Shown here piece by piece: positions 21,190 to 28,466 of a stretch of DNA of 64,000 bases. The DNA lies in assembly GCA_028692655.1 (NCBI GenBank), contig JAQUWY010000001.1:24116-88115 (forward strand), in the 5' to 3' direction. The stretch's first letter is position 1. Every line of letters begins with the position of its first letter. The notes under the pieces are model-generated. The model saw only the letters and a list, made by a program, of their open reading frames with translations, did not search any database and was not told where the DNA came from. This stretch comes from Candidatus Omnitrophota bacterium. Its GTDB lineage: Bacteria > Omnitrophota > Gorgyraeia > Duberdicusellales > 4484-171. The translations under genes and the position numbers were made by a program.

Positions 21190-22371
21190 ATGAAAGCACA
21201 TCCCGACTATAGGAAAGACTTGGAGATTGCCGCGAAGCAGATGATTCTTATCCACCGTGTGGATACTTTGATTAAACTGATTCTGCGCACTATAGTCAGG
21301 TCACTTAAGGTTAAACATGCCGGGCTTCTTTTATATGATAAAGATAGAGATGAATATGTGGTTAAGGTGTCCCGCGGTAAGGGTGGATTCAAGATTCCTT
21401 CCGGATTTACCAAAATAAATAAAGATAACGCTTTAATAAGATATTTTACTGAAGATAGCCTGCGTATTTTCGGCAAGGATGTTTTACTTCTGCGCCGGTT
21501 GAATGCTTTTTTAAGCTCAAAAAAGACCAAAAAGGATAAAAACTTAAGAACTTTTCTTGAAAGTATTAAGCTGCAGTTTTCTTTATATAACGCAAAGGCT
21601 TGCATTCCGGGATTTTTTAGGGATAAACTTATTTGTATTTTTTTTCTTGGCCAAAAGTTAGACGGTAAAGATTTCAACCGGGACGAGTTAGGATTTCTTT
21701 CGGTTCTAAGCTCAGACGCAGTAATGGCTATCCAAAATGCTTGGTTTTTCCAGGATTTGAATAACCAGCTTGGTATAAATAAAAAGCTCTTTTTACAGAC
21801 TGTGATGGCGCTTGCTTCAGCAATTGAAGCCAAAGATAAATATACAATAGGCCACACAGAAAGAGTATCAAAATATTCTTTGATAGTTGCCCAGGAAATT
21901 AAAGCAATGAAGAAAGTTCCTTCTAAGGACAGGGAAGATTTTCTGGAAAATTTAAGGATAGCGTCTTTGCTTCACGACATAGGAAAAATCGGCGTCAGGG
22001 AAGATGTGCTTAACAAAAATGGGTTTCTTGATCAAGAAGAACGCCGCGAAATCGAAAAACACCCAACGATAGGGTTTTCGATATTGAAACAAGTTGATGA
22101 ATTTCATGAGCCTATTTTAGGGGTGAAATACCACCATGAGCGTTATGATGGCAAAGGATATCCCGAAGGCATAAAGGGAAAGAAAATTCCTCTTATTGCC
22201 CAGATAATTGCCGTAGCAGATACCTTTGATGCGATGACCTCTGATAGGCCATATCGTAAGGGTTTATCCAAGGAAGAAGCAGCTAGGGTAATTGAGGAAA
22301 ATAAAGGCAAGCAATTTTCTCCTTTGATCGTGGATGCGTTCTTAAGGGTGTATAAGGCAGGGAAGCTGTAA
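21190..22371 (+). CDS. GAF domain / HD-GYP phosphohydrolase
   Basis: HD motif LLHDIGKIGV. HD-GYP signature HHERYDGKGYP. Confidence 0.8.
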   Translation: MKAHPDYRKDLEIAAKQMILIHRVDTLIKLILRTIVRSLKVKHAGLLLYDKDRDEYVVKVSRGKGGFKIPSGFTKINKDNALIRYFTEDSLRIFGKDVLLLRRLNAFLSSKKTKKDKNLRTFLESIKLQFSLYNAKACIPGFFRDKLICIFFLGQKLDGKDFNRDELGFLSVLSSDAVMAIQNAWFFQDLNNQLGINKKLFLQTVMALASAIEAKDKYTIGHTERVSKYSLIVAQEIKAMKKVPSKDREDFLENLRIASLLHDIGKIGVREDVLNKNGFLDQEERREIEKHPTIGFSILKQVDEFHEPILGVKYHHERYDGKGYPEGIKGKKIPLIAQIIAVADTFDAMTSDRPYRKGLSKEEAARVIEENKGKQFSPLIVDAFLRVYKAGKL

Positions 22372-22903: not shown

Positions 22904-23021
22904 TTTTTTGACCTTTGGTCAAAAAACGGAGCAATTGAGCAATAGACAATAGAACAATAGATGCGTTTGCTCAATTGCGGTCTAATGCTCAATTGTTCTA
23001 TTGTTCTAAAGAAGGTGACAA

Positions 23022-23342
23022 ATGCCTTTCATGTTCGAAAATCTGGAGGTTTATAAGAAGGCTATCGATATCGCCGAAGAGCTTGGCGTTCTCACGGAAT
23101 CTTTTCCAAAAGGTAACTATTATTTAGCCGATCAGTTGAATCGAGCGGCTCTATTAATCGCGACAAATATTGCCGAGGGCAATGGTAAGTATCATAAAGC
23201 AGATAGGATTAACTTTTTTCGCATCGCTCGTGGTTCTGCGTTTGAATGTATTCCCATATTAGAATTATGTAAGCGCAAAAGATTAATCAAAGAAGAGGAC
23301 GCTTCAGGCATCAATTCGGCTAAGGCCTCTTTGAAATGGTAA
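23022..23342 (+). CDS. four-helix-bundle protein (23S rRNA IVS protein family), copy 3
   Basis: LEVYKKAIDIAEEL...FPKGNYYLADQLNRAALLIATNIAEGNGKYH...FRIARGSAFE. Confidence 0.8.
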   Translation: MPFMFENLEVYKKAIDIAEELGVLTESFPKGNYYLADQLNRAALLIATNIAEGNGKYHKADRINFFRIARGSAFECIPILELCKRKRLIKEEDASGINSAKASLKW

Positions 23343-23562
23343 TTTCAAAAGGCCTAGTCTCATTGAGACAACGGACTCCGGACGAGGCTTGGTCCGAGCC
23401 GGAGTTTTAATAGTCGTAGAGCTGTTTTGAATCTAAGCCTTTTTCTTTATCTACGAAATAGCCAGGTTTTTCTCGAAATAAGATTTTTCCTTGACACCTG
23501 CGCTATAAATATGTTATATTAACTCCGGTTAATTTATAGGTTAAACCTTTACGGTTAAGGAT

Positions 23563-23655
23563 ATGCGGACAAAAAACCATTACAAGGCAATTTTTTCTCT
23601 AGTTGTAGGGGTAGTAGTCTCTGCGTTCTGCCGTAGGGGTCTAGCTAATAAGTAG
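23563..23655 (+). promoter_or_regulatory. candidate ilv leader peptide 1 (MRTKNHYKAIFSLVVGVVVSAFCRRGLANK)
   Basis: 30-codon ORF with a Val-rich core LVVGVVV, followed 25 nt later by an intrinsic terminator. Lies upstream of ilvB. Confidence 0.45.
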
Positions 23656-23681
23656 ATTAACCGAAAATTAGCGAAAACAAA

Positions 23682-23719
23682 GCCCTTGTCGGTAGAAACG
23701 ACAGGGGCTTTTTTATTTT
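23682..23719 (+). terminator. attenuator terminator 1 (ilv leader)
   Basis: gcccttgtcg-gtagaaa-cgacaggggc stem followed by ttttttatttt. Confidence 0.55.
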
Positions 23720-23752
23720 ATACTGCATAAAAATAGCAAAATGCCAAATAAT

Positions 23753-23821
23753 ATGGAGAAAAATAGGCTTAATAATCAGGTTAAACTAGAATTGGTCGTA
23801 GTCAACAAGGCACCGCCTTAA
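23753..23821 (+). promoter_or_regulatory. candidate ilv leader peptide 2 (MEKNRLNNQVKLELVVVNKAPP)
   Basis: 22-codon ORF with LELVVV, followed about 25 nt later by a second intrinsic terminator. An in-frame alternative start lies at 23741. Confidence 0.4.
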
Positions 23822-23844
23822 GGCGCTTATGTTTTGTAAGCATA

Positions 23845-23885
23845 GGCCCCTGCCGGCGGTAAACGAGGCAGGGGTTTTTTATTTT
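23845..23885 (+). terminator. attenuator terminator 2 (ilv leader)
   Basis: cccctgcc-ggcggtaaacga-ggcagggg stem followed by ttttttatttt, 28 nt before the ilvB start. Confidence 0.55.
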
Positions 23886-23912
23886 CAAAAGGGATTTTAG
23901 AAGGAGGGGAAA

Positions 23913-25583
23913 ATGTATTACAGCGGAGCGCAGATTCTTATTAAATTATTGGAGAAATTCGGAATAAGAAAAATTCCCGGAATTCCCGGGGGCGCGAATC
24001 TTCCAATTTATAGCGCCCTGGCAGACAGTTCTATAGAGCATATCTTGGCACGGCATGAGCAGGGAGCTGGATTTATTGCTCAAGGCATGGCACGCTCAAC
24101 CGGTAAGCCTGCAGTTTGTTTTGCCACTTCCGGCCCGGGTGCTACGAATTTATTAACAGCCATTGCCGACGCAAAATTAGATTCGGTGCCGATAATTGCT
24201 ATTACCGGACAGGTGCCTACAACTTATTTGGGGACAGATGCTTTCCAGGAAATCGATACCTACGGCCTTACTTTGCCGATTACAAAACACAATTTTCTCA
24301 TTCGTTCGCCAGCGGAGCTGCTGGAAGTTATTCCTGAAGCTTTCAGGATTGCTAGAGACGGCCGGCCGGGGCCGGTTGCAATTGATATTCCTAAGGATGT
24401 ACAGTTTGAGAAGATTAAAGTTTCTAAATGGCCATCTCCGAAAAGGACAAAAATTAAAAAAATTGACCAAAAAACTATTAGGAAAATAGCGCAAGAAATC
24501 AATAAAGCAAAAAAGCCCTTGCTTTATATCGGCGGCGGGATTATCAGCTCAGGGGCTCATTTGGCTTTGCGTAAGTTTTCCGGTAAGAATTCTATTCCGG
24601 TTACATCAACCCTTATGGGCCTGGGAGCTTTTTTGCCTCAGGGCTCCTTATATTTGGGGATGCTGGGAATGCATGGGGCGCGCTATACAAATCTTCTTCT
24701 TAAGGAAACAGATTTACTTTTGGCTTTTGGGGTTAGATTTGATGACAGGGCAACTGGCAACATAAAAGAATTCTGCAGCCAGGCTAAGATAATCCATATC
24801 GATATTGACTATGCAGAAATAGACAAATTGAAGAAAACTAATATTTCCATAGCAGGGGATATCAAGCAGGCGTTAGAGCAGATCCTTCCTTATTTAAGGC
24901 GCGATGCCCGAAGGCAGTGGCTTGCTCATATAGAAAAGTTTAAGAAAGAATATCCTTTTTTTATGCCGGCAAAAAAATATTTTTTTCAACCGCTTAACTT
25001 TATACAGGCTATAAACAGGCATCTTGCGCCTCAGGATATTATTACTACTGATGTTGGCCAACACCAGATGTGGGTTGCCCAGGCTTATACTTTCAGCTAT
25101 CCCAGGACTTTTTTGACATCCGGAGGCCTGGGAACAATGGGTTTTGGGTTCCCGGCGGCTATCGGTGCGGCTCTGGCTAATCCCGGCAGGCGTGCGGTTT
25201 GTATTAGTGGAGACGGCTCATTCCTTATGAATATACAGGAATTAGCCACTCTGGCCGATTTGAATTTAGATGTTGCCGTAATAATAATGAATAATAAAAA
25301 TTTAGGATTGGTTCGTCAACAGCAGGAACTTTTTTACGGTAAAAAATACATAGGGACCTTCTTTAAGAGTAATCCTGATTTTACGAAAATAGCTGAAAGC
25401 TTTGGCATAAGGGGCTATGATTTGGGAAAGGCAAAGCAACCAGCGAAGATGCTGGATGAGGCTTTACGGAAAAAGGGCCCTTGTGTTATCAATGCCCCGA
25501 TCCATTATGCCGAAAACGTTATGCCTATGGTTGCTCCGGGAGCGGCCAATAGCGAAATGATAGGAGGCCAGGAATATGAATAA
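23913..25583 (+). CDS. ilvB: acetolactate synthase large subunit (ThDP-dependent)
   Basis: 556 aa. TPP-enzyme N/M/C domains. GDGSFLMNIQEL ThDP-binding motif. SD aaggagggg. Confidence 0.9.
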   Translation: MYYSGAQILIKLLEKFGIRKIPGIPGGANLPIYSALADSSIEHILARHEQGAGFIAQGMARSTGKPAVCFATSGPGATNLLTAIADAKLDSVPIIAITGQVPTTYLGTDAFQEIDTYGLTLPITKHNFLIRSPAELLEVIPEAFRIARDGRPGPVAIDIPKDVQFEKIKVSKWPSPKRTKIKKIDQKTIRKIAQEINKAKKPLLYIGGGIISSGAHLALRKFSGKNSIPVTSTLMGLGAFLPQGSLYLGMLGMHGARYTNLLLKETDLLLAFGVRFDDRATGNIKEFCSQAKIIHIDIDYAEIDKLKKTNISIAGDIKQALEQILPYLRRDARRQWLAHIEKFKKEYPFFMPAKKYFFQPLNFIQAINRHLAPQDIITTDVGQHQMWVAQAYTFSYPRTFLTSGGLGTMGFGFPAAIGAALANPGRRAVCISGDGSFLMNIQELATLADLNLDVAVIIMNNKNLGLVRQQQELFYGKKYIGTFFKSNPDFTKIAESFGIRGYDLGKAKQPAKMLDEALRKKGPCVINAPIHYAENVMPMVAPGAANSEMIGGQEYE

Positions 25584-25875
25584 AATTGCCAGCACTATAA
25601 TAGAGTTGACGGTTAGGAATCATCCGGGGGCCATGTCGCACATAACCGGTTTGTTTTCCCGCAGGGGATTTAATCTGGAGGGAATACTATGTGCTTCCAT
25701 AGGCAATGGCGAAAATAGCCGCATGTATTTACTGGTCGAAAACAATAGCCGTCTTGAGCAGATAGTAAAACAACTACAGAAATTATACGATGTTCTAAAA
25801 CTGCGAATAAGGCATGATTATGACCACACTTTATTTAATCGCCTGCATGAGCTTATTAAGGGAGAAGGACTATAA
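25576..25875 (+). CDS. ilvN: acetolactate synthase small subunit (ACT domain, short form)
   Basis: 99 aa. ACT-domain start LTVRNHPGAMSHITGLFSRRGFNLEG. Overlaps the ilvB stop. Confidence 0.8.
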   Translation: MNKIASTIIELTVRNHPGAMSHITGLFSRRGFNLEGILCASIGNGENSRMYLLVENNSRLEQIVKQLQKLYDVLKLRIRHDYDHTLFNRLHELIKGEGL

Positions 25876-26006: not shown

Positions 26007-26642
26007 GTGGGCCGAAACTGTTTGCTAATCTTGGCCTTTTGCGGTAAAATTCCATCAATGGAGAAGAAAAATATATATATAATATCTGGGCCAAATGGTT
26101 CAGGCAAGACTACTTTTGCCAAGGAATTCTTGCCTGATTATGCAAATTGTCCCAATTTTATAAATGCTGACCTTATCGCTCAGGGGTTATCTCCCTTTTC
26201 GCCTCAACAAGTGGCAATCAAAGCCGGCAAACTCGTTCTTGAACAAATCACTCAATTTTCCGAAAAAGGCCTTGATTTTGGGTTTGAGACTACTCTATCC
26301 GGAAAAACTTACCTTAAACATTTTAAGGTTTTTAAGAAAAAGGGTTACCGGCTAAATTTATTTTTTCTCTGGATTCCCAGCCCGCAGTTGTCTATAGTCC
26401 GTATTCAAGATAGAGTTAAACAAGGCGGGCATGATGTGCCAATAGCAGATATCAAGCGTAGGTTTGACAGAAGTATAGAAAAGTTTTTTAAAGAATACCG
26501 CTTATTGGCAGACAAATGGATATTATTTAATAATTCTGGGGAAAAGCCGAAGATTATTGCAAAAAAACAAAACGCACATATCGATATAATTGATAGAGAA
26601 CTAATGACGAAAATTACTAAAAAAGCCGGAGTAAAATTATGA
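26007..26642 (+). CDS. zeta-toxin-like P-loop kinase (AAA-type ATPase)
   Basis: Walker A ISGPNGSGKTTFAKE. Zeta/PezT-like length and layout. GTG start at 26007 or ATG at 26058. Confidence 0.5.
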   Translation: MGRNCLLILAFCGKIPSMEKKNIYIISGPNGSGKTTFAKEFLPDYANCPNFINADLIAQGLSPFSPQQVAIKAGKLVLEQITQFSEKGLDFGFETTLSGKTYLKHFKVFKKKGYRLNLFFLWIPSPQLSIVRIQDRVKQGGHDVPIADIKRRFDRSIEKFFKEYRLLADKWILFNNSGEKPKIIAKKQNAHIDIIDRELMTKITKKAGVKL

Positions 26643-26790
26643 AAAAGAAACGCTTAACGATACTAGACAAAGCCGAGCTTGCCATGAAACAAGCCATAAA
26701 AAAAGTTGTGGCCCAACATAAAAAAGACGGCCGCCCGTTGGCGGTATGGGAAAACGGCAGGGTTAAAAGAATCTACGTTAAGTAATACTT
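26639..26790 (+). CDS. small hypothetical protein (50 aa) translationally coupled to the zeta-like kinase
   Basis: ATG overlaps the upstream stop (ATGA). Basic, lysine-rich. Not in the supplied ORF track because it is under 60 aa. Confidence 0.3.
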
Positions 26791-26906: not shown

Positions 26907-28466
26907 ATGAGCGAAATTATCTATCATATTGGCTTGCCTAAAAACGGACGATTAAAATCAATTCCTAAAAATCTTCTCAATGCTTCTTTTAAAAGAATAT
27001 CTAAACTAAAAGATATTGAGAAAACGGGGCCGTCTCTTGTAGTGGTAGATGAAAGCCTTCTCAGAAAAAAAACCAAATTTAATCTCGCCCTTTTAACTGG
27101 TAAAGTTTGTCTTGCTCATTTCAAAGAAGCCAGTAAAAAACATTTCAGCACAATTAAAAAATTTAATTGTTTCGGTTATTTTACTGATCAGGATTCAAAA
27201 ACAGAGGTTTCTTTTAAATTTAAGAGGGCATTGAAGGTCCTTACGTCTGTGCGACAGCTCTATAAAGCAAGGGATGAACTGACCAAAAAAGAAGAACAGA
27301 TCCAAAAAATGACCTTGGTTGACCCTTTGACCGGCTGTTACAACTGGCGCTATTTTTTGAATCGTCTTTCCCAGGAGATAAGCCGCAGCCGCAGGTATCT
27401 TTATAGCGTTTCGTTTGTCGGTATAGACATAGATAATTTCCGCCAGATAAATGAGATTTACGGCGTCAAAGTTGCAGATCAAGTTACCAAAGATTTAGTG
27501 GCTCTTTTGAATAGGACGTTGAGGAAGGAGGATGTCCTTTGCCGCTGGAGAGGGGATGAGTTTTTTATTATCGCTCCTCATATTGAAAGTAAGAATGGCT
27601 ACAGGATGGCGGCGAGGATAAGGAACAAGATAAATTCTTATAAATTTAAGTATCGCAATTTAACAATAAGCATAAAAGCCAGCATAGGCGTTACTTCTTC
27701 TCCGGAAGACAGCCTTTTTAATGCCAGGGATATTGTTGGAGCTTTAAACAGGTGCCTTGTCCTGGCTAAACGCAAGGGCGGAAATACTATAGTGTTGCAT
27801 TCTGAATCCAAATTCAAGTTTATCCGAAAAGAAAAGGATAAAGCTAATGTTGTGGATTTAAGAGGCAAAATCGAGAAGATGAATGTTCTCATGACCAGGG
27901 ATTTTCTTGAAATGATCTATGGATTTGCCCGGGCCATAGAAGCTAAAGATTCTTATACCGGCAAACACGTTGAATATACGGCTGTTTTAGCTGAAGAAAT
28001 AGCTAACAGCTTAAAGCTTTCTAAAAGTGAGGTTGAAAACATTAAGCATGCCGCGGTTTTACATGATTTGGGTAAGGTTGGCATAGATGGCAGTATCCTT
28101 TCCAAAAAAGGCTCTTTGACCGCCAAAGAGAGAAACATTATAAAAACTCATCCTTCCATTGCTGCCGGAATCTTAAAAGATATCCATAGCTTGCGAGGAG
28201 CTGTCCCGGCGATTCTTTACCATCACGAACGCTATGACGGCAAGGGCTATCCGCTGGGCCTCAAAGGAGAAGAGATACCTTTAAGTGCCCGAATTGTTTC
28301 TGTGGCGGACGTATATCAAGCGCTTATTTCCGACAGGCCTTATCGTAAAGGCTTTAGCAGAAAAGAAGCGATACGAATTGTTAAAAGCGAATCCGGAAAG
28401 CAATTTGACCCTAAAATCGTAAAAATATTTGAAAAGGTAGTTAAAAAGATAAATGGCCGAAGATGA
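26907..28466 (+). CDS. degenerate GGDEF domain + HD-GYP domain protein
   Basis: GGDEF-like region DPLTGCYNWRYF...RWRGDEF (first Gly of GG(D/E)EF replaced by Arg). HD-GYP motifs HDLGKVGI and HHERYDGKGYP. Confidence 0.8.
   Translation: MSEIIYHIGLPKNGRLKSIPKNLLNASFKRISKLKDIEKTGPSLVVVDESLLRKKTKFNLALLTGKVCLAHFKEASKKHFSTIKKFNCFGYFTDQDSKTEVSFKFKRALKVLTSVRQLYKARDELTKKEEQIQKMTLVDPLTGCYNWRYFLNRLSQEISRSRRYLYSVSFVGIDIDNFRQINEIYGVKVADQVTKDLVALLNRTLRKEDVLCRWRGDEFFIIAPHIESKNGYRMAARIRNKINSYKFKYRNLTISIKASIGVTSSPEDSLFNARDIVGALNRCLVLAKRKGGNTIVLHSESKFKFIRKEKDKANVVDLRGKIEKMNVLMTRDFLEMIYGFARAIEAKDSYTGKHVEYTAVLAEEIANSLKLSKSEVENIKHAAVLHDLGKVGIDGSILSKKGSLTAKERNIIKTHPSIAAGILKDIHSLRGAVPAILYHHERYDGKGYPLGLKGEEIPLSARIVSVADVYQALISDRPYRKGFSRKEAIRIVKSESGKQFDPKIVKIFEKVVKKINGRR

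What the first reader, a model, noticed from the sequence alone, without database searches (positions are those of the whole stretch)
23563..23885. Two tandem Val/Leu-rich leader peptides with terminators upstream of ilvBN
ORF1 MRTKNHYKAIFSLVVGVVVSAFCRRGLANK (23563-23655) is followed by an intrinsic terminator at 23682-23719. ORF2 MEKNRLNNQVKLELVVVNKAPP (23753-23821) is followed by a second terminator at 23845-23885, right before the ilvB start.

Runs of regulatory codons followed by terminators are the hallmark of ribosome-mediated attenuation. A double attenuator in series is uncommon.
Basis: partly seen in the sequence, partly recalled or inferred. Interest (0 to 1): 0.5.

Follow-up and report, generated by a model that had tools for sequence, protein, structure and literature searches.

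The report
Two valine-sensing attenuators before ilvBN
The 390-base leader of this uncultured bacterium's valine-pathway operon (ilvBN) holds two complete "leader peptide plus terminator" switches in series; each is a textbook kind of switch, but the tandem layout is unusual and is conserved in related metagenomic lineages.

Summary
A strong sigma-70 promoter (23491-23520) drives a leader holding ORF1 (23563-23655, LVVGVVV), terminator T1 (23679-23719), ORF2 (23753-23821, LELVVV...APP), terminator T2 (23846-23885), then ilvB (23913) and ilvN. No Rfam family matches.

The source is a Candidatus Omnitrophica MAG. Relatives whose IlvB is only 64-69% identical keep the same promoter-ORF1-T1-ORF2-T2 layout, about a dozen distinct sequences in all. 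Most other AHAS-I-type ilvBN loci, from several phyla, carry a single Val-rich leader.

Each unit has an antiterminator as stable as its terminator (-23 to -27 vs -22 kcal/mol). It stays intact with a ribosome stalled on the Val codons and is lost with a ribosome at the stop codon. This holds in all 14 att1 and 11 of 12 att2 sequences tested; the twelfth could not be scored.

In unit 1 the antiterminator strand can also pair with the leader ORF's own Shine-Dalgarno/start region. That motif is read in all three frames among relatives, so the RNA rather than the peptide is conserved.

Verdict: two ribosome-mediated Val (Val/Leu) attenuators in series. This is a new variant of a known mechanism, supported only by computation. 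Weak points are the poor or absent SD for the window's two ORFs and only modest covariation in the antiterminators.

The parts
23491..23520 (+). Sigma-70-type promoter of the ilvBN leader (-35 TTGACA, 18-nt spacer, extended -10 TG-n-TATATT); predicted 5' end near 23527
   Evidence: 11/12 matches. The same TTGACA...TATATT arrangement is seen in relatives L082-L098. The upstream gene has its own terminator-like hairpin at 23373-23410.
23545..23570 (+). Region 0 of attenuator 1: Shine-Dalgarno/start region of ORF1 (ACCUUUACGGUUAAGGAUAUGCGGAC), which can pair with region 2 (anti-antiterminator; also hides the ORF1 start)
   Evidence: Duplex 0:2 is -28.9 kcal/mol, z = -5.2 in the window, and -14 to -30 kcal/mol with z = -2.9 to -7.1 in ten of the thirteen relatives; three are not significant (L103, L128, L149; for L128 and L149 the ORF1 start used was probably wrong). 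Anchored pair count: 85% paired vs 43-48% when slid. Fold 23545-23641: -30.6 kcal/mol, z = -2.9.
23563..23655 (+). Leader ORF1, 30 codons; regulatory run L13 V14 V15 G16 V17 V18 V19 at 23599-23619
   Evidence: Homologous Val-run ORFs sit in the same position in 13 other sequences.
23626..23640 (+). Region 2 of attenuator 1 (UUCUGCCGUAGGGGU): pairs either with region 0 or with the 5' arm and loop of T1
   Evidence: Conserved block UUUUC(A/G)CCGU(A/G)GGG in alignment A5. Its invariant CCG is read in all three frames among relatives.
23626..23697 (+). Antiterminator 1 (region 2 paired with GCCCUUGU-CGGUAGAA of T1)
   Evidence: -23.2 kcal/mol, z = -3.4. Duplex -24.3 kcal/mol, z = -4.3. 83% of cells paired across 14 sequences vs 38-53% when slid, though not better than column shuffles.
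23679..23719 (+). Intrinsic terminator T1 (13-bp stem 23679-23711, then U-run)
   Evidence: Covariation across 14 sequences: 94.6% paired, 5 pairs with changes on both sides, 0/500 shuffles as good.
23753..23821 (+). Leader ORF2, 22 codons; regulatory codons V10, L12, L14, V15-V17 (23780-23803); ends Ala-Pro-Pro-stop
   Evidence: Homologues in 11 other sequences all end in Pro-Pro or Ala-Pro in the same frame.
23805..23837 (+). Protector (1:2-like) hairpin of attenuator 2: ACAAGGCA:UGUUUUGU plus CGCC:GGCG; starts 2 nt after the Val codons
   Evidence: -11.4 kcal/mol. It appears in the full-length MFE fold when T2 is formed. It was not checked in relatives.
23813..23859 (+). Antiterminator 2: CCGCC (the Pro-Pro codons) with GGCGG, AGG with CCU, and a central hairpin that takes in GGC of the T2 5' arm
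   Evidence: -24.3 kcal/mol, z = -3.75. Across 12 sequences 86.8% paired vs 47-63% when slid, 19/500 shuffles as good; pair 34-85 is GC in 6, AU in 3, GU in 1.
23846..23885 (+). Intrinsic terminator T2 (stem 23846-23875, then U-run to 23885)
   Evidence: -21.6 kcal/mol, z = -3.8. 91.6% paired in relatives at the correct register, with 3 pairs changed on both sides (slide -1).
23901..25583 (+). Shine-Dalgarno AAGGAGGGG (23901-23909) and ilvB (23913-25583), the acetolactate synthase large subunit
25576..25875 (+). ilvN, the short (99 aa) ACT-domain small subunit, overlapping the end of ilvB

Best explanation
The ilvBN leader carries two ribosome-mediated transcription attenuators in series. Both sense the supply of charged Val-tRNA, and the second also reads Leu codons.

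Unit 1. Transcription starts near 23527. A ribosome must load on ORF1 while the leader is still being made.
- If Val-tRNA is scarce, the ribosome stalls at V14-V19. This leaves region 2 (23626-23640) free just ahead of the ribosome, and the ribosome sits between region 2 and its other partner, the ORF1 SD/start region. Region 2 then pairs with the emerging 5' arm of T1 (antiterminator), and RNA polymerase reads through.
- If Val-tRNA is plentiful, the ribosome runs on to the stop codon. It then masks region 2 or stands between region 2 and T1, so T1 forms and transcription ends.
- If no ribosome loads, region 2 pairs with the SD/start region and T1 forms. This is the default-off state, and it also shuts off further translation of the leader RNA.

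Unit 2. Polymerases that escape T1 meet the same test again.
- A stall at L12-V16 of ORF2 masks the small protector hairpin. The antiterminator (23813-23859), whose base is the Pro-Pro codons, stays intact.
- A ribosome reaching the UAA stop melts that antiterminator, and T2 forms.

Because both terminators must be passed, basal expression should be lower and the response to valine limitation steeper than with one attenuator.

Shown by computation: the ORFs, the terminators, the alternative pairings, their dependence on modelled ribosome position, and their conservation. Inferred: that the ORFs are translated, that stalling really selects the antiterminator, the steric 'ribosome as wedge' argument for unit 1, and the multiplicative effect of the two units.
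For: Anatomy.

No known RNA family matches.

Conservation of the complete tandem layout at 64-69% IlvB identity: L082, L083, L086, L087, L088, L095, L097, L098, and L102, L103, L128, L149 from the metagenome scan. IlvB-type operons in other phyla carry single Val-run leaders plus a terminator, including the enterobacterial IvbL used as a positive control. So Val-leader attenuation travels with this operon type.

Terminator covariation: T1 94.6% paired, 0/500 shuffles as good; T2 91.6% paired at the right register.

Antiterminators:
- Window energies are -23.2 and -24.3 kcal/mol with z = -3.4 and -3.75, comparable to the terminators.
- Complementarity is conserved: 83% and 87% paired vs 38-63% when slid.
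- There are compensatory changes: UUCUGCCG:CGGUAGAA in the window vs UUUUCACCG:CGGUGAAAA in relatives, and G-C vs A-U at A6 columns 34/85.

Ribosome-position dependence holds in every att1 sequence (14) and in 11 of 12 att2 sequences; in L095 the stop-codon footprint reaches T2, so it could not be scored. Stalled in the Val run, -8.6 to -32 kcal/mol of structure pairs 43-92% of the terminator 5' arm with upstream sequence. At the stop codon, 0 to -7.6 kcal/mol remains and 0-46% of the arm is paired.

SD/start pairing with region 2.

RNA-level rather than peptide-level constraint in unit 1: the invariant CCG is read in all three frames, and Gly/Glu/Lys interchange inside the hydrophobic run among close relatives.

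No promoter-like site was found between T1 and ORF2.
Against: - There are no expression data.
- In this genome ORF1's SD-like AAGGA ends 1 nt before the ATG, and ORF2 has no SD, only an A-rich upstream tract. Several relatives have good SDs for ORF1 (GGUGA) and, in the L082 group, for ORF2 (AGAGGAG).
- ORF2 has only three consecutive Val codons.
- Antiterminator 1 does not beat column shuffles (179/500 for percent paired, 124/500 for the covariation score). Its support is conserved complementarity rather than covariation.
- By duplex energy alone the window's antiterminator 2 is not significant (-15.4 kcal/mol, z = -0.5); it needs the central hairpin seen by full folding.
- At equilibrium with the complete terminator present, the terminator always wins. 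The model therefore depends on co-transcriptional kinetics that I could not simulate.
- The 0:2 helix of unit 1 is not covered by a ribosome stalled at the Val codons, so why it does not form then rests on a steric argument.
Confidence: 0.75

Rival explanations
1. Only one of the two units works as a regulated attenuator in this genome. The other is a decaying duplicate that acts as a constitutive, partly leaky terminator or does nothing.
For: The window's ORF2 lacks an SD and has only three Val codons, and ORF1's SD spacing is poor. Some relatives have lost part of the tandem. L090 has one unit. L092/L093 have one leader peptide followed by two adjacent terminators.
Against: Both units in the window keep a full set of alternative structures with significant folding energies. 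Both are conserved over 64-69% IlvB identity with their Val runs intact. SD-less, A-rich starts for ORF2 are common among relatives that still keep long Val runs.
Confidence: 0.15
2. Unit 1 is mainly a separate small gene. Either the roughly 190-nt transcript ending at T1 acts as a trans-acting small RNA, or the 30-residue hydrophobic ORF1 product is a functional small protein. In that case only unit 2 controls ilvBN.
For: The T1-terminated RNA would be closed by a long 5'-3' hairpin (23527-23662, -44.1 kcal/mol), which could make it stable. ORF1 is hydrophobic. From memory, attenuator-derived small RNAs and leader peptides with functions of their own are known (rnTrpL/peTrpL in Sinorhizobium).
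Against: The conserved region-2 motif is read in three different frames, and the C-terminal peptide differs completely between lineages. Radical substitutions (Gly/Glu/Lys) occur inside the hydrophobic run among close relatives. Region 2 is complementary to the T1 5' arm in all relatives, which is not needed for a simple terminator. No promoter separates unit 1 from unit 2. A trans function would add to attenuation, not replace it.
Confidence: 0.05
3. The leader is controlled by something other than the ribosome, such as a T-box (uncharged tRNA), a ligand riboswitch such as ppGpp, or an RNA-binding protein. On this view the short ORFs are incidental.
For: ilvB leaders in Firmicutes use such elements. 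Some loci from the scan (L131, L136, L152 and others) have a terminator but no Val-rich ORF.
Against: No Rfam family reaches its threshold even at E = 10 (best hits are terminator-driven matches to His_leader and PyrR at about half the gathering score). The Val runs are the most conserved coding feature of both ORFs. The position of the stop codons relative to the antiterminators fits ribosome control in every relative that could be scored.
Confidence: 0.03

Closest known systems
E. coli/enterobacterial ilvBN attenuator with leader peptide IvbL (Pfam PF08049, NCBIfam NF007579)
   Same: The operon type is the same: AHAS-I-like large subunit with a short ACT-only small subunit. Both have a Val-rich leader peptide that ends in Ala-Pro-stop (the window's ORF2 ends Ala-Pro-Pro-stop), followed by an intrinsic terminator just before ilvB. 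From textbook knowledge, the E. coli operon is attenuated by Val and Leu.
   Different: Enterobacteria have one leader peptide and one terminator; the window has two of each. Neither window peptide matches the IvbL profiles, although the Enterobacter control does (E = 3e-13 and 1e-13). In unit 1 the anti-antiterminator partner is the leader ORF's own SD/start region rather than the regulatory codons.
Classical leader-peptide attenuators (trp, his, leu, thr, pheA, ilvGMEDA)
   Same: A short ORF with a run of regulatory codons, mutually exclusive terminator, antiterminator and protector helices, and a decision set by ribosome position. The model is as summarised in PMC4615214 and PMC1183508.
   Different: Those operons each have a single attenuator. 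In unit 1 here the '1' strand is the SD/start region about 40-60 nt upstream of the Val run. A stalled ribosome therefore does not cover it directly.
Tandem attenuators of the Salmonella mgtCBR leader (Lee and Groisman 2012, PMC3641672)
   Same: One leader RNA holds two short translated ORFs, each governing its own pair of alternative structures, and the two act additively on transcription of the downstream genes.
   Different: The mgtCBR units sense two different signals (ATP and Pro-tRNA), regulate a virulence/Mg2+ operon, and lack canonical intrinsic terminators, as that paper itself notes when contrasting with metE. The two units here look like paralogues sensing the same amino acid, each with a canonical terminator, and they precede a biosynthetic operon.
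Tandem riboswitches and tandem T-boxes (for example B. clausii metE; Sudarsan 2006, as cited in PMC3641672)
   Same: Two complete sensor-plus-terminator units in series in one leader. Where both sense the same signal, the expected result is tighter and steeper control.
   Different: In those systems the sensor is an RNA aptamer or a tRNA-binding fold. Here the sensor is a translating ribosome.
erm(A)/erm(T)-type leaders with two leader peptides
   Same: Two short leader ORFs in series upstream of one gene, with ribosome stalling remodelling the RNA structure.
   Different: Those are translational attenuators triggered by an antibiotic-stalled ribosome that frees the erm SD. They are not terminator-based and do not sense amino acids.

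Membership tests
Ribosome-mediated (leader-peptide) transcription attenuator | Short ORF with a start codon inside the leader, upstream of the structural gene and downstream of the promoter | tested here: met
   ORF1 23563-23655 and ORF2 23753-23821 lie between the promoter (23491-23520) and ilvB (23913). The translation signals are weak in this genome: the SD is 1 nt from the ATG for ORF1 and absent for ORF2.
Ribosome-mediated (leader-peptide) transcription attenuator | Run of codons for the amino acid(s) made by the regulated pathway | tested here: met
   ORF1 has LVVGVVV and ORF2 has V.L.LVVV upstream of acetolactate synthase. The runs are conserved and usually longer in relatives.
Ribosome-mediated (leader-peptide) transcription attenuator | Intrinsic terminator between the leader ORF and the structural gene | tested here: met
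   T1 and T2 fold at about -21.7 and -21.6 kcal/mol and are followed by U-runs. Covariation.
Ribosome-mediated (leader-peptide) transcription attenuator | Antiterminator that uses the terminator's 5' arm and overlaps or abuts the end of the leader ORF | tested here: met
   Complementarity is conserved, but covariation is modest (not significant for unit 1 against shuffles).
Ribosome-mediated (leader-peptide) transcription attenuator | A ribosome stalled at the regulatory codons permits the antiterminator; a ribosome at the stop codon prevents it | tested here: met
   Footprint-masked folding for the window and for 14 att1 and 11 of 12 att2 sequences (L095 att2 could not be scored at the stop codon). 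This is a model calculation, not an experiment.
Ribosome-mediated (leader-peptide) transcription attenuator | Protector (1:2) pairing that gives termination when the leader is not translated and is disrupted by the stalled ribosome | tested here: inconclusive
   Unit 2 has a small hairpin (23805-23837, -11.4 kcal/mol) that a stalled ribosome would cover. In unit 1 the competing partner is the SD/start region, which a ribosome stalled at the Val codons does not cover. Its exclusion rests on a steric argument.
Ribosome-mediated (leader-peptide) transcription attenuator | Read-through rises when the cognate aminoacyl-tRNA is limiting | not testable with these tools
   This needs reporter assays, Term-seq or coupled in vitro transcription-translation.
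IvbL leader peptide family (Pfam PF08049 / NCBIfam NF007579) | Significant match to the family profile | tested here: not met
   ORF1, ORF2 and six relatives' peptides give no hit at E up to 10, while the Enterobacter peptide scores 49.8 and 50.8 bits. The shared features are only the Val run and the C-terminal Ala-Pro.
Known cis-regulatory RNA families (T-box, ppGpp/ykkC, Rfam amino-acid leader models) | Match reaching the Rfam gathering score | tested here: not met
   The best hits are His_leader (27.4 bits vs 49, on the minus strand) and PyrR (25.6 vs 54), both driven by the terminator hairpin.
Tandem regulatory leaders (mgtCBR-type tandem attenuators; tandem riboswitches/T-boxes) | Two complete sensor-plus-expression-platform units in one leader transcript with no promoter between them | tested here: met
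   Conserved in about 12 distinct relatives.
Tandem regulatory leaders (mgtCBR-type tandem attenuators; tandem riboswitches/T-boxes) | For the mgtCBR type: the two units sense different signals | tested here: not met
   Both ORFs are Val-dominated in the window and in relatives, and the Leu/Ile content varies without a consistent split between the units.

The most novel reading that the evidence does not exclude
This would be a natural two-stage ribosome-sensing switch for an amino-acid biosynthesis operon. Two paralogous Val-codon attenuators, each with its own intrinsic terminator, act in series and give a multiplicative, more switch-like response. In the first stage the anti-antiterminator strand is the leader ORF's own Shine-Dalgarno/start region. 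One helix would then set the default-off state, limit the leader to a single pioneering round of translation, and be kept open by the stalled ribosome acting as a physical wedge. The design is conserved across an uncultured clade (Omnitrophota and neighbours). To my knowledge, and in the searchable literature, it has not been described for leader-peptide attenuators of biosynthetic operons.
Probability: 0.5. Interest if true: 0.55.

Novelty: new variant of a known kind. Interest (0 to 1): 0.45.

Why it matters
Leader-peptide attenuation is a textbook mechanism known almost entirely from single units in cultured Proteobacteria and Actinobacteria. This finding adds three things.

- **Reach.** The mechanism, together with an IvbL-like Val leader, accompanies AHAS-I-type ilvBN operons into uncultured phyla.
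- **Layout.** One clade has duplicated the whole sensor-terminator unit. That makes it the ribosome-sensing counterpart of tandem riboswitches and T-boxes, and a natural test case for whether series attenuators sharpen the dose response.
- **Wiring.** The first unit uses the leader's own ribosome-binding site as the competing strand.

The parts are compact (about 170-190 nt each) and could be tested in E. coli or reused as amino-acid-responsive parts. This is a modest advance rather than a new principle.

Tried and rejected
- **Rfam at E up to 10**: only sub-threshold, terminator-driven hits. T-box and riboswitch explanations were dropped.
- **Aligning unit 1 against unit 2 within the window**: no convincing nucleotide homology beyond the terminators. 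Paralogy is suggested only by the shared plan, and by the similar T1 and T2 sequences in relatives.
It still supplied the cross-phylum single-leader comparison.
- **Equilibrium folding with the complete terminator and a ribosome mask**: the terminator wins at every ribosome position (P about 0.95), which is uninformative for a kinetic switch.
- **Mean pairing probability of the 5' arm in truncated transcripts**: too blunt. In unit 1 it is dominated by the long 0:2 hairpin, which was allowed to form across the masked ribosome. I replaced it by folding only the RNA downstream of the footprint.
- **Full-length MAFFT alignments A3 and A7**: these misaligned the window's region 2 or the SD block. 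I used the shorter alignment A5 and an anchored count instead.
- **T2 pair count**: my structure string was written in the window's register, which MAFFT had shifted by one column. The correct register is the slide -1 row.
- **Pfam and NCBIfam on the leader peptides**: no membership in IvbL.
- **Different amino acids sensed by the two units** (Val vs Ile/Leu): rejected, because the composition varies among relatives without a consistent split.
Full report
**1. What is in the sequence**

The interval 23343-23912 is intergenic. It lies between a four-helix-bundle gene (23022-23342, TIGR02436) and a 556-codon ORF starting at 23913.
- That ORF is a biosynthetic acetolactate synthase large subunit: TIGR00118 scores 690 bits, above its cut-off, and the best model is PRK08155, the E. 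coli IlvB type.
- The overlapping 99-codon ORF (25576-25875) is a short ACT-only small subunit. Its best model is PRK08178, the IlvN type.
- A near-consensus promoter (TTGACA, 18 nt, TG-n-TATATT) sits at 23491-23520. It is the only good promoter-like site on this strand in the region.
- The upstream gene has its own hairpin plus U-run at 23373-23410. The leader, from about 23527 to 23912, is therefore its own transcription unit.

- T1 (23679-23711 plus U-run) was found by the terminator scan.
- T2 (23846-23875 plus U-run to 23885) was missed only because its loop is 12 nt. It folds at -21.6 kcal/mol, z = -3.8; T1 folds at -21.7 kcal/mol, z = -7.1.
- The whole leader folds better than shuffles (z = -5.2).
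- No Rfam family comes near its threshold.

**2. Source and relatives**

The IlvB protein is identical to one annotated from a Candidatus Omnitrophica MAG. The next relatives are only 64-69% identical. A second assembly of the same organism (L081) has an identical leader.

I fetched the DNA around ten of these distant relatives. I also ran a metagenome scan with an alignment of the short IlvN proteins.

The complete layout is promoter, ORF1 with a Val run, T1, ORF2 with a Val/Ile/Leu run ending in Pro-Pro, T2, SD, ilvB. It recurs in:
- L082, L083 (also seen as L084, L085 and L094), L086, L087, L088, L095 (also L096), L097 and L098 (also L099);
- L102, L103 (also L104), L128 and L149 (with a partial copy in L153).

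Examples of the peptide pairs:
- L082: MQINKILFSVVGVNVVVVVHGIFTVGIK and (M)KELERIKIYIVDIVVVVSVVGRPPP.
- L097: MQINHNLVTILSLNLKMVVVVCSAMRFSP and MYKKYFLNLVVVLVVVGALSPPG.

Two members of the same IlvB clade deviate:
- L090 (Auribacter fodinae) has one unit.
- L092/L093 have one ORF1-like peptide followed by two adjacent terminators.

In a rough NJ tree of IlvB, the tandem loci fall in one clade with these two nested inside it, and L149 lies elsewhere. This suggests one duplication with later losses, but the tree is only indicative.

Outside this clade, about 25 AHAS-I-type loci each have a single Val-run leader peptide, typically ending in Ala/Ser/Thr-Pro-stop, plus one terminator. They come from contigs labelled Proteobacteria, Verrucomicrobiota, Leptospira, Spirochaetia and others. 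The Enterobacter peptide among them is the annotated IvbL family (PF08049/NF007579). The window's peptides do not match those profiles.

**3. Alternative RNA structures in the window**

*Unit 2.*
- The Pro-Pro codons CCGCC (23813-23817) pair with GGCGG (23855-23859), and AGG pairs with CCU.
- A central hairpin takes in GGC of the T2 5' arm.
- Together these form an antiterminator of -24.3 kcal/mol (z = -3.75), against -21.6 kcal/mol for T2.
- A small protector hairpin (23805-23837, -11.4 kcal/mol) starts 2 nt after the Val codons.

I modelled the ribosome footprint as the A-site codon with 15 nt upstream and 14 nt downstream. The results were:
- Ribosome at L14, V15 or V16: the antiterminator is intact (-25 to -27 kcal/mol).
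- Ribosome at V17: it is weakened (-15.6 kcal/mol).
- Ribosome on the UAA stop: only -5.0 kcal/mol remains, so T2 is free to form.

*Unit 1.*
- Region 2 (UUCUGCCGUAGGGGU, 23626-23640) pairs with GCCCUUGU-CGGUAGAA of T1. The fold is -23.2 kcal/mol, z = -3.4; the duplex is -24.3 kcal/mol, z = -4.3.
- The same region 2 can instead pair with the ORF1 SD/start region (23545-23570). That duplex is -28.9 kcal/mol, z = -5.2, and it is part of a long hairpin at 23527-23662 worth -44.1 kcal/mol.
- Downstream of a ribosome stalled at V17, V18 or V19, the antiterminator is worth -23.2, -17.8 or -12.0 kcal/mol.
- Downstream of a ribosome at the stop codon, only -2.5 kcal/mol remains.

**4. Are these pairings conserved?**

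*Terminators.*
- T1: 94.6% of cells paired across 14 sequences, five pairs changed on both sides, and 0/500 shuffles as good.
- T2: 91.6% paired at the correct register (slide -1; MAFFT had shifted the window's 3' arm by one column).

*Antiterminator 1.*
- 83% paired, against 38-53% when the partner strand is slid. It is not better than column shuffles, because the columns hardly vary.
- Two changes on both sides separate the window (UUCUGCCG:CGGUAGAA) from most relatives (UUUUCACCG:CGGUGAAAA).

*Antiterminator 2.*
- 86.8% paired against 47-63% when slid, with 19/500 shuffles as good.
- The pair at A6 columns 34-85 is G-C in six sequences, A-U in three and G-U in one.

*Duplex energies against shuffles.* These are significant for most relatives in both units.

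*SD/start pairing with region 2 in unit 1.*
- ACGGUGAAAA pairs with UUUUCACCGU.
- 85% of positions are paired against 43-48% when slid, with compensations in L095 and L092.
- Unit 2 has no such pairing.

*Frame usage.*
- The invariant CCG of region 2 in unit 1 is read in frame 0 (Pro-stop; L090, L097, L098, L128, L149), frame 1 (L082-L088, L095, L102, L103) and frame 2 (window, L092).
- The RNA motif is therefore what is conserved, not the peptide's C-terminus.
- In unit 2 the CCNCCN is always read as Pro-Pro, or GCNCCN as Ala-Pro, in frame.

*Ribosome-position test.* I repeated it on all 14 att1 and 12 att2 sequences, and it gave the same answer wherever it could be scored.
- Stalled in the Val run: -8.6 to -32 kcal/mol of structure, pairing 43-92% of the terminator 5' arm with upstream sequence.
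- At the stop codon: 0 to -7.6 kcal/mol, with 0-46% of the arm paired.
- L095 att2 could not be scored at the stop codon, because the footprint reaches T2.

**5. Most likely mechanism**

Each unit is a ribosome-mediated attenuator of the classical kind summarised in PMC4615214 and PMC1183508.

When Val-tRNA is scarce, the ribosome stalls in the Val run. The antiterminator forms as the terminator's 5' arm emerges, and the polymerase reads through.

When Val-tRNA is plentiful, the ribosome reaches the stop codon.
- In unit 2, and in unit 1 of most relatives, the stop lies 3-14 nt beyond the region-2 anchor, so the ribosome covers that strand.
- In unit 1 of the window and of L092 the stop lies 22 nt beyond it. 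The ribosome instead stands between region 2 and T1, and region 2 is free to pair backwards with the SD/start region.
- Either way the terminator forms.

Without translation, the 0:2 helix in unit 1 and the protector hairpin in unit 2 favour termination.

The 0:2 helix would also block re-initiation on finished leader RNA. From memory, a comparable pairing of the leader ribosome-binding site was described for the E. coli trp leader by Yanofsky's group; I could not retrieve that paper here.

Because the two units are in series with no promoter between them, expression should require passing both terminators. This should give lower basal expression and a steeper response.

The terminal Pro-Pro-stop of ORF2 may slow ribosome release, which would prolong masking of the antiterminator. 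That is speculation based on general knowledge of slow termination after proline.

Steps shown by computation: the anatomy, the alternative pairings, their conservation, and their dependence on modelled ribosome position. Steps inferred: translation of the ORFs, the kinetic competition, the steric exclusion of 0:2 during a stall, and multiplicative action of the two units.

**6. Weak points**

- In this genome ORF1's SD-like AAGGA ends 1 nt before the ATG. Relatives have GGUGA 4-7 nt upstream.
- ORF2 has no SD, only an A-rich tract. Several relatives share this; the L082 group has AGAGGAG.
- ORF2 has only three consecutive Val codons.
- Covariation support for the antiterminators is modest.
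- Equilibrium folding always prefers the terminators, as expected for a kinetic switch.
- There are no expression data.

**7. Comparison with known systems, and novelty**

The closest family is the enterobacterial ilvBN/IvbL attenuator. It shares the operon type, the Val leader and the Ala-Pro-stop ending. However, it is single, and the peptides here fail the IvbL profiles.

I searched the library for tandem or double attenuators and for leaders with two leader peptides.
- The only natural tandem attenuators I found are in the Salmonella mgtCBR leader. Its authors call it a singular example and state that biosynthetic operons normally have one attenuator (PMC3641672).
- The only leaders with two leader peptides I found are the erm-type translational attenuators.
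- The comparative study of ilvB leaders in Actinobacteria reports leader peptides with terminators and makes no mention of tandem or double attenuators (PMC1262725).

The library lacks most subscription-journal papers, including the early comparative-genomics surveys of attenuators. Prior description therefore cannot be excluded.

I rate this a new variant of a known kind. It combines a conserved duplication of a whole leader-peptide attenuator before a biosynthetic operon with an SD-sequestering first stage, in an uncultured phylum.

**8. Verdict**

I put about 0.75 confidence on both units being working Val-sensing attenuators in series. Interest is moderate (0.45): the mechanism is textbook, the architecture is uncommon, and it can be tested cleanly.

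Noticed in passing
window 22908-23021: A long imperfect palindrome, rich in CAATTG/CAATAG repeats, lies directly upstream of the four-helix-bundle gene (23022-23342). It gave spurious microRNA-precursor (MIR6135) hits on both strands.
   Followed up: no
window 23373-23410: A hairpin (ACUCCGG...CCGGAGU) followed by UUUU, probably the terminator of the upstream four-helix-bundle gene. It separates that gene from the ilvBN leader promoter.
   Followed up: partly
window 26007-26785: A Zeta_toxin-like ORF (211 aa, PF06414 in the precomputed hits) lies directly after ilvN, with an overlapping 48-aa ORF (26639-26785). NCBIfam gave no hit. It could be a toxin-antitoxin remnant.
   Followed up: no
window 21190-22371 and 26907-28466: Two c-di-GMP-related proteins flank the ilvBN operon: an HD-GYP-like response regulator and a GGDEF plus HD-GYP-like protein.
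   Followed up: no
L092 1760-1960 (same in L093): This Omnitrophota relative has one ORF1-like leader peptide (MKQKIREFNNIAVLLVLVVVAGSCRRGMPMY), which shares the window's CRRG / GCCGUAGGGGU motif. Two back-to-back terminators follow it, and there is no second ORF. It may be a decayed tandem.
   Followed up: partly
L149 930-1000: In this tandem locus from a different IlvB clade, the strand competing for region 2 (ACGGUG) lies inside ORF1, directly next to region 2 (palindrome ACGGUGUACACCGU). This is the classical 1:2 arrangement rather than the SD-region pairing of the window's clade.
   Followed up: partly
L001-L013, L105-L168 (upstream of ilvB): Single Val-run leader peptides, mostly ending in Ala/Ser/Thr-Pro-stop and followed by a terminator, precede AHAS-I-type ilvBN on contigs labelled delta-proteobacterium, Verrucomicrobiota, Leptospira, Zoogloea, Spirochaetia and Treponema. 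The leader seems to travel with the operon across phyla.
   Followed up: partly
L131, L136, L138, L140, L146, L151, L152, L154, L157, L165, L177 (upstream of ilvB): These loci, some from gut metagenomes, share a different conserved terminator (CUUCGUCCUAU...AUAGGAUGAAG) and have no Val-rich leader ORF. They probably carry a T-box or another RNA element; I did not check.
   Followed up: no
L090 1480-1560: A tRNA-like sequence appears to lie just upstream of the ilvBN leader promoter in the Auribacter fodinae contig. I saw this only by reading the sequence.
   Followed up: no
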